A stretch of DNA of 64,000 nucleotides. Source: a virus. The position numbers and the translations under genes are program-made. Numbering within the stretch: position 1 is the stretch's first letter; each line of letters starts with the position of its first letter. This document shows, in pieces, positions 3,983 through 40,088 of this stretch. The stretch lies in IMG/VR virus record IMGVR_UViG_3300012932_000063; one strand, 5' to 3'. The notes below the pieces were generated by a model, which was given only the letters and a program-made list of their open reading frames with translations, had not been told where the DNA came from and did no database searches.

Positions 3983-4289
3983 AGAATCTGAAAGAGAAAA
4001 AACCAGTAAACTTTGAGATAACTTCTGGTGATGTGAAAGGCATACTCAAAAGCAAAGAGTATTTGGTGGCGGTAAAACATTTGGCTATGATTACAAGAAC
4101 AATGAGACAGCGCAAAAAATGGTTAGAGGATTGGCGAAATTATTTACATCAATTCTGCAAGGTAAATTACACAAAATTACCATTAACTAATCAAAAATTC
4201 CTTGTTGAAGTAGGATAAATTCCAATTTAATCACTAATTCTGCACATTTAAGTTGACAAAATTCCGTATATGTTTTACAATATATTTTG

Positions 4290-6242: not shown

Positions 6243-6314
6243 AGGCGTAGGCAGGAATCGAACCTGCTCATGCTCCCTTGCCAAAGAAGTGTGTTCCCAT
6301 TTCACCACTACGCC
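6243..6314 (-). tRNA. tRNA-like gene, anticodon GGC (Ala) on a Cys-like acceptor stem
   Basis: GGCGTAG/CTACGCC, loop TT-GGC-AA, GCAGG TTCGATT CCTGC, U73. Confidence 0.75.
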
Positions 6315-8738: not shown

Positions 8739-9000
8739 GTTTTTCTCCTGAGTTTTGCTGGAAATTGCCAAAGGTGGGGAGATCAAGGCTTCCAGCATAT
8801 AAACATGATCTCCCCATATTTATTAGGCTGGAAACCTTTAAATGAATTATAACTTAATTACACTAATTCTGCAACATAAATTATACAAAATCCCTTTTAA
8901 CTAATAAAAATTCCCTTCTGAAGCAGGGTAAATTCCGATTTAAGCACTAATTCTGCATATTTAAGTTGACAAATTTCCGTATATGTTTTATAATATATTG

Positions 9001-9072
9001 AGGCGGAGGCGGGAATTAAACCCGCACTTCTTCCGTGCAAGGAAAGCGTCTTAACCATTTGACCACTCCGCC
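9001..9072 (-). tRNA. tRNA-like gene, anticodon TGC (Ala) on a Cys-like acceptor stem
   Basis: GGCGGAG/CTCCGCC, loop CT-TGC-AC, T-loop TTTAATT, U73. Confidence 0.75.
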
Positions 9073-37038: not shown

Positions 37039-37101
37039 TATTAAAATCGATATAGAAGAAACCGTATCAAAAGAAGAAGCTATAAAACGGGTAAATGTTA
37101 T
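37001..37101 (+). pseudogene. 5' part of a small ORF interrupted by the TnpB element (3' part at 40069-40090)
   Basis: Joining 37101 to 40069 gives MKEIKFPL..KRVNVIEIGVIE-stop, with ATGA overlap to the next gene. Confidence 0.65.
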
Positions 37102-37223
37102 CAAAGTCTTCCATTTCAAAACTCCATGCTTTAGCTTGGAGATGTAGAAATGGCGCAGGGCGTGTTTCATGGAACTGGACTTGGTATGATAAAAAACATA
37201 GCCAAGCCCAATCTTTTTGCAGG

Positions 37224-37520
37224 TTACACTGCCTTCCATTTTCTGCCTATTCTTACAACTTTTCTTCGTTCAAGTAATCTAAACAGTGATTCTCTGACGG
37301 TAAGGTTGTAAGGTGCTGTTGGGTGCGTATCCAATTTTGTGGGTATAGACAATCTCAATGTAATCTCACCTTGGGTGAGACACTGATTCCATTTTCCTTT
37401 AACTTCTAACAACACTTCCAAAACCGCAGAATCAAGAATTAATAACGCTATTTCCGATTTAATCTGCGGATCCATATTCATAAACAAATCATAATCGGCG
37501 TTATCCAAGGGCTGTTTCAT
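37224..37520 (-). CDS. Winged-helix-like hypothetical protein (cargo)
   Basis: AGGAG RBS; helical body ending in VVRIGRKWK hairpin. Confidence 0.65.
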   Translation of the reverse strand: MKQPLDNADYDLFMNMDPQIKSEIALLILDSAVLEVLLEVKGKWNQCLTQGEITLRLSIPTKLDTHPTAPYNLTVRESLFRLLERRKVVRIGRKWKAV

Positions 37521-37657
37521 TTCAACAGTTCTCCTATAATGCACTTGTATATTAACAATTTTCGCGCGTTAATCATTGACTAAATACGCGAAAAATGCTA
37601 ATATACAAGTTAGGTTAAGTTACATTTAAGTTGCAAGTACAAAACACTTGTAACTTC

Positions 37658-37719
37658 AAGGCAGCTGATTGCCAAGAATTGTTGGTTCTTGGGCGGGGTT
37701 TAATTCCCCGCTTGCCTTT
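37658..37719 (+). ncRNA. D-arm-less tRNA-like RNA
   Basis: AAGGCAG/TTGCCTT stem, CCAAGAA-TTGTTGG-TTCTTGG arm, GCGGGG-TTTAATT-CCCCGC T-arm; promoter TTGACT-17-TAATAT at 37576-37604. Confidence 0.55.
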
Positions 37720-37827
37720 TTCTACAAAAAATTCTACAATATTTGTGGATTTTTCGCAATACTGAAAGTTTAATAAGTGAATATATGGTAGGTAATTGGG
37801 CGATCTGTTTGGATCGTCTATTTTAAT

Positions 37828-37856
37828 TTGACATGCTATTGTAAATCGCGTATAAT
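37828..37856 (+). promoter_or_regulatory. Consensus sigma70 promoter
   Basis: TTGACA-17-TATAAT. Confidence 0.75.
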
Positions 37857-38018
37857 AGTATTTGTGAAAGGGAGGCAAGGATTGCCGTCCATACCTCCCG
37901 ATGCTAATTTTCAGGAATATGGCTGTTTTTGTGGAGTCGCCAGCAAGTCCCCGAAAAAGAAAAGTTAGAATAACCACTTGGGGTGCAATGAAACGGAAAT
38001 AAAAGAGGTGTGTAAAAT

Positions 38019-38652: not shown

Positions 38653-38779
38653 TTGACAAAAATATGTAATTGTGATATTATATGTTTTACCAGTTTGGCA
38701 GGCATTGTTAGCTTTGCCGCAAGGCATTGTGCCTGCCTCCCACTAACAAGGGGATAATCAAACTGGCACTGGTAATTCC
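38653..38779 (+). promoter_or_regulatory. Promoter and pseudoknotted 5' leader of tnpB copy 2
   Basis: TTGACA-17-TATTAT, then three-way junction with 7-bp loop-loop complementarity. Confidence 0.55.
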
Positions 38780-40003
38780 ATGAGATTAGTAAGAACCAAA
38801 AGGCTTAAGATACAAAGGCAATCTATCTTTTCTGAGATTAATGCCGCGTCTGCTGATGTATGGCGTGAATGCTGTGATTTGATGGATATGTATCAGTGGC
38901 GGCGTGGTTATGGTCATGCTCACATGGATTTCTATATTGGTGAGGATTGTGAGGGTTGGGTGGATAAGAATTTGTCTAAGTCTCAGCCTTTACATTCTCA
39001 GAGTATACAGGCGGTGCGTGCCTCATATTTTAAATCTTGGGCGTCCTATGCAGTGCTTAAGAAAACAGGTGGCATCAGGAAACCTAAACCGCCTAATAAG
39101 AAAAAGAAATATCGTACCACCCACTGGAAGAAGTCCGCCATCAGATTTTATGAAAGTGGATTATTAGGCAAACGCGTTCTGCTTTCTATGGGTGCCGGCA
39201 GACCAAGATTAGATATAAAGCTGCCAAAAAACTTTGATATGTCCACAAATCATTTGATTGCAACTATTGAGTTGGTCTATGATTATGGGCAATGGGAGTT
39301 ACATTTCACATATTATGAAACTATAGAGAAGCCAGAAGCTGGTAATGGTGTTATAGGTATTGATTTGGGTGAGGTTCATCCGATGGTATGTTTTGATGGT
39401 CAAGTTGCTCTAATTTTTAATGGACGCTATATCCGCTCGCTATATCGCCTTAGAAATAAAGTTCTTGCAGGATTCAATGCTGCCATTAGTAAATGTCAAC
39501 GCCATTCCAAACGCTGGTGGAAGCTAACGCGTCGCAAGTGGAAGCGCATCAGAAGGATAGATAATCAAATCAAGGACGGCTTACACAAACACACGCGAAA
39601 GTTAATGGATGAATGTGAGGTAAGAGGTATTGGGACCGTTGTTGTTGGTAATTTGACGGGCATCCGCGATCATATAGATTACGGCAAAAAGTCAAATCAA
39701 AAACTGCATCAGTGGCCCTTCGCTAAGTTGATAAACATGATAACCTACAAAGCAAAAGCATTAGGTATCAAAGTGAAACATATCAACGAGGCATATACCT
39801 CCCAAACTTGCCCGAAATGCGGCAATAGAAAGAAACCTAATAAACGTGAGTATAAATGTAAGTGTGGTTTCACATATCATCGTGATGGTGTGGGCGCAAT
39901 CAATATAAGACAAAAGTATCTGGGATGCCTCGGTGTCCCCGTAGTGGCGCACATGGCGGCGCCCCAGGGCTTCAGATTAGAAGTCCCGGTTGCCTTGACT
40001 TAA
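38780..40003 (+). CDS. tnpB: TnpB (IS200/IS605-family RNA-guided endonuclease), copy 2
   Basis: GIDLG, VVVGNL, INEAYTSQTCPKCG, HRDGVGAINI. Confidence 0.93.
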   Translation: MRLVRTKRLKIQRQSIFSEINAASADVWRECCDLMDMYQWRRGYGHAHMDFYIGEDCEGWVDKNLSKSQPLHSQSIQAVRASYFKSWASYAVLKKTGGIRKPKPPNKKKKYRTTHWKKSAIRFYESGLLGKRVLLSMGAGRPRLDIKLPKNFDMSTNHLIATIELVYDYGQWELHFTYYETIEKPEAGNGVIGIDLGEVHPMVCFDGQVALIFNGRYIRSLYRLRNKVLAGFNAAISKCQRHSKRWWKLTRRKWKRIRRIDNQIKDGLHKHTRKLMDECEVRGIGTVVVGNLTGIRDHIDYGKKSNQKLHQWPFAKLINMITYKAKALGIKVKHINEAYTSQTCPKCGNRKKPNKREYKCKCGFTYHRDGVGAINIRQKYLGCLGVPVVAHMAAPQGFRLEVPVALT

Positions 40004-40088
40004 CAATCAAGGAATGTTCCTACAAGGAACAAAAGGAATCTCCAGTCTTTAGACTGGAGAGGGTTCAAAGAAATAGGAGTTATTGAAT
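39912..40088 (+). ncRNA. omegaRNA (reRNA) of tnpB copy 2; predicted guide AGAAATAGGAGTTATTGAAT
   Basis: Overlaps tnpB 3' end; GAAT-hairpin-TCAA right end as in IS608/ISDra2. Confidence 0.75.

What the first reader, a model, noticed from the sequence alone, without database searches (positions are those of the whole stretch)
37545..37725. D-arm-less tRNA mimic inside the TnpB cargo
Seen: a 62-nt fold (37658-37719) with a 7-bp acceptor-like stem, a 7-nt linker instead of a D-arm, a 7-bp arm with loop TT-GTT-GG and a T-arm with TTTAATT (the same loop as the tRNA at 9001). It is preceded by a promoter within a long inverted repeat and a hairpin, and followed by a T-run. Inference: a tRNA-like decoy (e.g. 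for anticodon nucleases or uncharged-tRNA sensors) or an RNase P/Z processing signal.
Basis: partly seen in the sequence, partly recalled or inferred. Interest (0 to 1): 0.65.

Follow-up and report, generated by a model that had tools for sequence, protein, structure and literature searches.

The report
Anticodon-free mini-tRNA carried by a transposon
A transposon in a phage that probably infects sponge-dwelling Poribacteria carries a small RNA gene that copies the top half of a transfer RNA but cannot read codons; it is most likely trimmed by the host's tRNA-cutting enzyme RNase P and lies antisense to the message of the neighbouring cargo gene.

Summary
The fold at 37658-37718 is real. It is conserved with compensatory changes in related IS608-like elements and belongs to a wider family: 56 copies in 32 of 151 Poribacteria genomes, none in Rfam. 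The conserved core is a 12-14 bp acceptor/T stack, a T-loop and a miniature D-hairpin, so 'D-arm-less' is not quite right. The middle arm is optional and its loop is not conserved, which rules against an anticodon decoy. The RNA has its own conserved promoter. A second conserved promoter fires back through it towards the divergent cargo gene, here a winged-helix protein. The module is optional cargo and is not tied to TnpB. Best reading: a non-decoding tRNA-elbow mimic, matured by host RNase P, that damps the cargo gene as a cis-antisense RNA. The processing and the antisense role are inferred; no RNase Z ortholog was found in five host genomes. This scan has already reported anticodon-less phage mini-tRNAs on other DNA; the transposon-cargo setting and the convergent promoters are what is new here.

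The parts
37102..37150 (+). Left end of an IS608-like IS200/IS605 element (TTAT| junction; subterminal hairpin 37122-37141)
   Evidence: Same junction in L001, L003, L012-L017, L274, L275; empty-site ORF restored
37224..37520 (-). Divergent cargo gene, 98-aa winged-helix protein of no Pfam family
   Evidence: Homologues P0002-P0004; model pLDDT 86; weak Foldseek matches, mostly winged-helix domains, best E 0.013
37543..37610 (.). 24-nt inverted repeat with CGCG half-sites around the -35 box (operator-like; also a long hairpin in the antisense leader just before the cargo RBS)
   Evidence: half-sites kept in 7-8 homologous modules
37576..37604 (+). Sense promoter TTGACT-17-TG-TAATAT; start near 37611
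   Evidence: -35, 17-nt spacer, TG and TAnnnT kept in all 8 operator-bearing modules
37628..37656 (+). 11-bp leader hairpin, ending 1 nt before the acceptor-like stem
   Evidence: a hairpin of variable inner sequence sits here in homologues
37658..37718 (+). Mini-tRNA: acceptor-like stem 37658-37663/37713-37718, mini D-hairpin 37664-37672, optional middle arm 37673-37691, T-arm 37692-37712 (T-loop 37699-37705); no encoded CCA
37717..37721 (+). Five-T run; a weak terminator at best, not kept in all homologues
37731..37759 (-). Convergent promoter TTGCGA-17-TAGAAT, start near 37724, reading antisense through the RNA towards the cargo gene
   Evidence: present in 7 of the 8 operator-bearing modules; shares its upstream 12-mer with the promoter of the phage tRNA at 6243
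37797..37826 (+). Conserved intrinsic-terminator-like hairpin of the IS backbone; would stop read-through from the sense promoter
38780..40003 (+). tnpB (OrfB_IS605 + TNB domain), with its own promoter at 38653-38681
40032..40068 (+). Right end, hairpin then TCAA|

Best explanation
A non-decoding tRNA 'top-half' (elbow) mimic on its own small-RNA gene, forming a portable divergent-promoter module that IS608-like elements of Poribacteria carry as cargo. Shown from sequence and comparison: conserved sense promoter, leader hairpin, a 13-bp acceptor/T stack with T-loop and mini D-loop, no conserved anticodon, and a conserved convergent promoter whose transcript is complementary to the RNA over about 113 nt before reaching the cargo gene's RBS. 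Inferred: (1) the sense transcript is cut by host type-A RNase P at 37658 or 37659, giving a stable ~61-nt RNA and a ~47-nt leader (about 0.7); (2) the 3' end is made by weak termination and exonucleases; (3) the stable RNA and the opposing polymerase damp the antisense-led cargo mRNA by pairing or transcriptional interference (about 0.45). It works like phage P1 C4 or mascRNA in processing logic and like a cis-antisense RNA in placement.
For: Covariation: 13/13 pairs intact in 4 IS copies, 5 pairs with double changes, 0/500 shuffles for % paired and covariation score; 97.3% paired and 107 double-change cells in 55 sequences. The stack is 12-14 bp in the 12 closest copies. T-loop consensus UUYRAUU. 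D-hairpin of 2 or more WC pairs in 51/53, mean 4.2 vs 2.0 shuffled. In prophage copies the +1 base is the last A of an upstream stop codon in 8 of 9 cases (64-107-codon ORFs), and about 35 copies form the 5' end of a longer RNA: both are placements expected of a cut site. RNase P RNA is present in 4/5 host genomes. Bacterial RNase P tolerates large truncations and extra base pairs (PMC4919922). Convergent promoter in 7/8 modules against a 2.8% background. In L274, L275 and L276 the RBS lies 5-10 nt from the operator half-site, leaving no room for a nearer promoter.
Against: No expression or cleavage data. In the window the cargo gene may also have a nearer TG-TAATAT promoter, which would bypass the antisense leader. 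L275 lacks a clear convergent promoter. L003 and L004 have lost the T-loop, so tRNA mimicry is not required in every module. Similar convergent promoters follow two ordinary phage tRNAs of the window, so they may be a general habit rather than specific to this RNA. The D19/T56 covariation test was inconclusive (p 0.06).
Confidence: 0.45

Rival explanations
1. A trans-acting shape decoy: the matured RNA (perhaps CCA-added) titrates a host protein that reads the tRNA elbow or acceptor end, such as a tRNA-cleaving defence nuclease or an uncharged-tRNA sensor, and so benefits the mobile element.
For: Stand-alone gene with a strong conserved promoter; elbow features kept; A1-U and G3-C invariant in the 11 closest copies; similar RNAs recur in unrelated phages.
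Against: No encoded CCA (1 of 44). Prophage copies overlap stop codons and others head a long RNA, which fits cutting better than decoying. The T-loop is lost in L003/L004.
Confidence: 0.2
2. A processing or insulating leader that controls the transposition genes downstream (tnpA or tnpB), with no effect on the divergent gene.
For: In L275 tnpA starts 93 nt after the RNA; in L276 a tnpA remnant follows; in L274 tnpB follows.
Against: tnpB has its own consensus promoter. In the window a conserved terminator at 37797 and 1 kb lie between. tnpA elements L014 and L016 lack the RNA.
Confidence: 0.12
3. A tRNA relic now serving as a plain terminator or stability hairpin.
For: The T-arm plus T-run scores as a terminator; the 5' end, 3' strand and T-loop resemble the phage's own odd tRNAs; T-loop lost in two modules.
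Against: The outer stem covaries with a strand 13-28 nt upstream; the U-run is not conserved; T-loop consensus and D-hairpin are kept across the family.
Confidence: 0.1
4. An RNA partner or antitoxin that binds the product of the divergent gene (type III-like, or a Y-RNA-like tether).
For: Gene and RNA always sit back to back; one partner type looks like a GIY-YIG nuclease by eye.
Against: The partner gene changes (winged-helix, GIY-YIG-like, others) while the RNA core stays; a distant winged-helix homologue has no RNA nearby (L280); no Ro60 next to it.
Confidence: 0.08
5. A decoy for anticodon nucleases that displays a GUU (Asn) anticodon loop.
For: The window loop has 7 nt with U33 and a purine at 37.
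Against: The closest homologue (83% identical region) has a 6-nt loop of unrelated sequence, L004 a 6-nt loop, and the other 54 aligned copies have no such arm.
Confidence: 0.04

Closest known systems
mascRNA/menRNA and plant mitochondrial t-elements (tRNA-like RNase P/Z signals; PMC4919922)
   Same: About 60 nt, tRNA-shaped, non-decoding, acceptor and T-arm kept, placed behind a structured RNA
   Different: Bacterial/phage mobile DNA; 13-bp stack; own promoter; optional middle arm; no RNase Z ortholog found in the hosts; no Rfam match
C4 antisense RNA of phages P1/P7 (PMC5320573; Hartmann 1995 as cited there)
   Same: Multi-stem small RNA cut from a longer precursor by host RNase P at the base of the closing stem; regulatory RNA on a mobile element
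   Different: No Rfam match; has a true T-loop and D-like loop; no a'/b' loop targets found in the window; here the overlap is with an opposite-strand transcript
Bacterial Y RNAs YrlA/Yrn1 (PMC4201824)
   Same: tRNA-like domain with D/T features; Yrn1 has a partial D arm, a 6-nt 'anticodon' loop and no variable arm; M. smegmatis YrlA is cut by RNase P
   Different: No Ro60-binding motif and no adjacent Ro60 gene
tmRNA tRNA-like domain (own knowledge)
   Same: Acceptor, reduced D region and T-arm, with a variable helix in place of the anticodon arm
   Different: No G3-U70, no CCA, no reading frame; not called by ARAGORN or Rfam
Anticodon-less phage mini-tRNAs noted earlier in this scan (e1-3634301, e1-3290562, e1-3642987)
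   Same: Same acceptor + short D-loop + T-arm plan; my model scores several such viral RNAs at 22-39 bits
   Different: 13-bp stack, optional middle arm, IS608-like cargo setting, convergent promoter

Membership tests
Canonical tRNA (RF00005) | Cloverleaf recognised by the tRNA model or ARAGORN | tested here: not met
Canonical tRNA (RF00005) | Conserved 7-nt anticodon loop on a 5-bp stem | tested here: not met
   Arm absent in 54 of 56 aligned copies; loops of 7, 6 and 6 nt where present
Canonical tRNA (RF00005) | 7/5 acceptor/T arrangement | tested here: not met
   6/7 or 7/6, 13 bp
Canonical tRNA (RF00005) | T-loop consensus and G18/G19 D-loop (elbow) | tested here: met
   UUYRAUU loops and UGG/UGA/UAGG D-loops; the window has the A19/U56 variant
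tRNA-like RNase P processing elements (mascRNA, t-elements) | Coaxial acceptor+T stack of about 12 bp with a T-loop, no decoding role | tested here: met
tRNA-like RNase P processing elements (mascRNA, t-elements) | Cleavage by RNase P at the 5' base of the stack | not testable with these tools
   Host RNase P RNA present in 4/5 genomes; cut not shown
tRNA-like RNase P processing elements (mascRNA, t-elements) | 3' cleavage by RNase Z | tested here: inconclusive
   No match over the TIGR02651 cut-off in 5 host genomes; best 85 bits against 293
Bacterial Y RNA (YrlA/Yrn1) | Ro60 (TROVE) gene adjacent | tested here: not met
   TROVE in 2 of 5 genomes, on other contigs; none among the large window ORFs scanned
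Bacterial Y RNA (YrlA/Yrn1) | GNCGAAN(0-1)G Ro-binding motif | tested here: not met
C4 antisense RNA | Match to the Rfam model; loop seeds with targets in the same operon | tested here: not met
   No C4 hit at E<=10; no convincing target
tmRNA | G3-U70 acceptor, CCA end, tag reading frame | tested here: not met
   G3-C pair in all 11 closest copies; ARAGORN negative
IS200/IS605 (IS608-like) element, as carrier | Tetranucleotide left junction, subterminal hairpins, TCAA right junction, tnpA and/or tnpB | tested here: met

The most novel reading that the evidence does not exclude
Poribacterial transposons and phages use a family of anticodon-free mini-tRNAs as general RNase P-operated control parts: as a stabilised cis-antisense RNA that tunes a swappable cargo gene (this locus), as a cut inside the stop codon of prophage genes, and as the 5' cap of an unannotated ~330-nt RNA; in one lineage the tRNA elbow has been swapped for a kissing-loop closure.
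Probability: 0.25. Interest if true: 0.75.

Novelty: new variant of a known kind. Interest (0 to 1): 0.5.

Why it matters
tRNA finders and Rfam miss these RNAs, yet they are conserved by compensatory change and common in Poribacteria and phages. If RNase P cuts them, mobile elements use the host's tRNA machinery to punctuate and stabilise their own transcripts, a bacterial counterpart of mascRNA and t-elements. This locus gives a compact test case: two opposed promoters, one 61-nt RNA, one reporter-ready gene, with natural variants that lack the middle arm or the T-loop. It also shows that IS608-like TnpB elements move regulated cargo modules, not just tnpB.

Tried and rejected
No genome is held for the window. 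Exact-pattern scans of viral contigs and metagenome contigs, a blastn of phage records, a protein scan of viral contigs and exact look-ups found no close relative; homologues came through the 98-aa protein. Rfam at E<=10 gave only chance miRNA-type hits to the inverted repeat. A viral test of A19/U56 against A19/C56 was confounded by tRNA-Ile/Asn genes and by GCUG acceptors. The automated test within the family gave p 0.06; by eye its four A/C cases have a GACGG loop, so I saw no true A19-C56, but this is only suggestive. No trans-antisense target above chance length in the window. CGCG is not depleted in the window (67 seen, 69 expected), so a methylation switch has no support. First structure model of the 98-aa protein was unusable (pLDDT 47); the ESM Atlas gave unnamed clusters only. 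Literature searches found no description of this family or of tRNA-like RNA in TnpB cargo; the library is incomplete. Y RNA, tmRNA, C4 and canonical tRNA membership were rejected as listed.

Full report
Observation. The window is phage-like DNA (ligase, helicase, primase, methylases, portal, seven tRNA genes). The 62-nt stretch folds as described, with z -3.1. The T-stem has 6 bp, so the acceptor+T stack is 13 bp. That architecture arises 0.02 times per shuffled window. ARAGORN and Rfam do not call it. The promoter, inverted repeat, leader hairpin and 5-T run are present. The surrounding element runs from TTAT|37102 to TCAA|40068, and joining the ends restores a 42-codon ORF, so this copy does lie in the cargo of a TnpA-less TnpB element.

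Homologues. The divergent 98-aa ORF (37224-37520, minus) led to a Candidatus Poribacteria protein and related contigs. L001 matches 37098-37942 at 83% and has both IS ends but no tnpB; L003 has tnpB. Searches of Poribacteria genomes added L274 (left end, GIY-YIG-like gene, RNA, tnpB, right end), L275 (left end, GIY-YIG-like gene, RNA, tnpA), and L276 and L277, where no IS end was found nearby. Sister elements L012-L017 have the same left end but no RNA. The module is therefore optional cargo, its partner gene is exchangeable, and it is not specific to TnpB. The host assignment to Poribacteria is inferred from these matches.

Structure. In the four closest copies all 13 pairs are intact and five show changes on both sides; no shuffle reached the observed pairing or covariation score. 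With 11 copies the values are 98.6% paired and 28 double-change cells. A second model found 56 matches in 32 of 151 genomes; over 55 distinct sequences 97.3% of cells pair and 107 show double changes. These alignments were fitted to the model, which biases the counts towards the structure; the first, a plain MAFFT alignment, was not. The middle arm occurs only in the window, L001 and a degenerate L004 copy, with loops of 7, 6 and 6 nt, so GUU is not a conserved anticodon. The 'linker' holds a small D-hairpin: GC-UGAUU-GC here, GC-UGGUU-GC in L274 and L275, and 4-5 bp in other subgroups; 51 of 53 copies have at least 2 WC pairs, mean 4.2 against 2.0 shuffled. In the window the 2-bp stem is at chance level and rests on homology. 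The window, L001 and one distant copy have A at the D-loop 19 position and U at T-loop 56, which would keep the elbow pair, but the test was inconclusive. CCA is not encoded; the phage's own tRNAs lack it too.

Promoters. The sense promoter keeps its -35, 17-nt spacer, TG and TAnnnT in all eight operator-bearing modules, giving leaders of about 42-91 nt. A second promoter, TTGCGA-17-TAGAAT at 37759-37731, points back through the RNA. It is found 2-11 nt from the RNA's 3' end in seven of those eight modules, against a 2.8% background, and also after two phage tRNAs. It shares its upstream 12-mer with the promoter of the tRNA at 6243. In L274, L275 and L276 the cargo RBS lies only 5-10 nt from the operator half-site, so those genes must be transcribed from further upstream. 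The cargo mRNA would then carry a ~200-nt leader whose first 113 nt are the exact complement of the small RNA. The 98-aa protein models as a winged helix (pLDDT 86; weak Foldseek matches) and may bind the repeat, but the repeat is kept beside unrelated genes as well.

Family context. Besides this IS type, Poribacteria copies fall in two other settings. In prophage operons the first base of the stack is the last A of an upstream UAA in 8 of 9 cases. About 35 copies form the 5' end of a conserved ~330-nt RNA with no Rfam match. A loose scan of viral contigs returned many 6/6 minihelices with a UGG linker in unrelated phages, none in Rfam among 20 loci tested; several score on my model. Earlier agents of this scan reported the same kind of RNA on other DNA; those notes are unchecked and I use them only to judge novelty.

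Mechanism. Shown: a conserved non-decoding tRNA top half under its own conserved promoter, overlapped by a conserved convergent promoter. Inferred: host RNase P cuts at 37658 (13 bp) or 37659 (12-bp ruler). Type-A RNase P RNA is present in four of five host genomes, and bacterial RNase P tolerates truncated substrates and extra base pairs (PMC4919922). P1 C4 RNA is a precedent for an RNase P-matured regulatory RNA (PMC5320573), and M. smegmatis YrlA for a tRNA-like domain cut by RNase P (PMC4201824). No RNase Z ortholog passed the cut-off, so the 3' end probably comes from the weak T-run or the terminator at 37797 plus exonucleases. The stable product and the opposing transcription would damp the cargo gene. 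Against this: no expression data, a possible nearer promoter in the window, no clear convergent promoter in L275, and loss of the T-loop in L003 and L004, where two complementary loops (GUGA/UCAC) may replace the elbow.

Verdict. Observation confirmed; interpretation partly supported. It is not a tRNA, tmRNA, Y RNA or C4 RNA by the features tested, but probably works like an RNase P-read tRNA-like element. I found no published description, although the library is incomplete, and this scan has met the broad family before. New here are the IS608-like cargo setting, the convergent promoters and the three Poribacteria contexts. Novelty: new variant of a known kind. Interest 0.5.

Noticed in passing
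L279:7010-7342 (-), L281:1230-1557 (-), L038 and about 30 more: An unannotated, conserved, highly structured ~330-nt RNA in Poribacteria genomes that begins with a mini-tRNA; about 35 copies, no Rfam match in the loci tested.
   Followed up: partly
L278:8615-8671, 10124-10182, 12103-12159 (-); L282, L283, L285, L296, L307: Prophage mini-tRNAs whose first base is the last A of the upstream gene's UAA; an RNase P cut there would split the stop codon.
   Followed up: partly
L003:9785-9845 (-) and L004:1140-1205 (-): Variant module with the same 12-13 bp stack, but the D- and T-loops are replaced by complementary loops (GUGA/UCAC), a possible kissing-loop substitute for the elbow; one event, no covariation.
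   Followed up: partly
window 4253-4281 and 8966-8994 (+): Consensus promoters fire antisense through the phage tRNA pairs, the same layout as at the mini-tRNA (also noted in e1-5349283).
   Followed up: partly
window 37797-37945 (+): Second IS backbone module: terminator hairpin, 12/12 consensus promoter at 37828-37856 and a structured leader with a GGA-TTGCCG-TCC hairpin; conserved in several Poribacteria genomes.
   Followed up: no
L274:4733-5116 (-), L275:5772-6149 (+): 126-128-aa cargo proteins with a GIY-YIG-like pattern by eye but no Pfam hit and only 2 hits in the protein database, the query included.
   Followed up: partly
window 9707-9765: 26-nt inverted repeat with CGCG cores directly upstream of the two tRNA-Gly-like genes, recalling the operator/hairpin of the cargo module.
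   Followed up: no
window 10302-11483 (+): A second tnpB, 57% identical to the first; further right-end-like fragments near 13592, 14173 and 19263.
   Followed up: no
L215 (viral contig, match 132-160 on -): A phage RNA with the window's plan: short linker in place of the D-arm, a middle arm with a 7-nt loop, no variable loop, and a T-arm.
   Followed up: no
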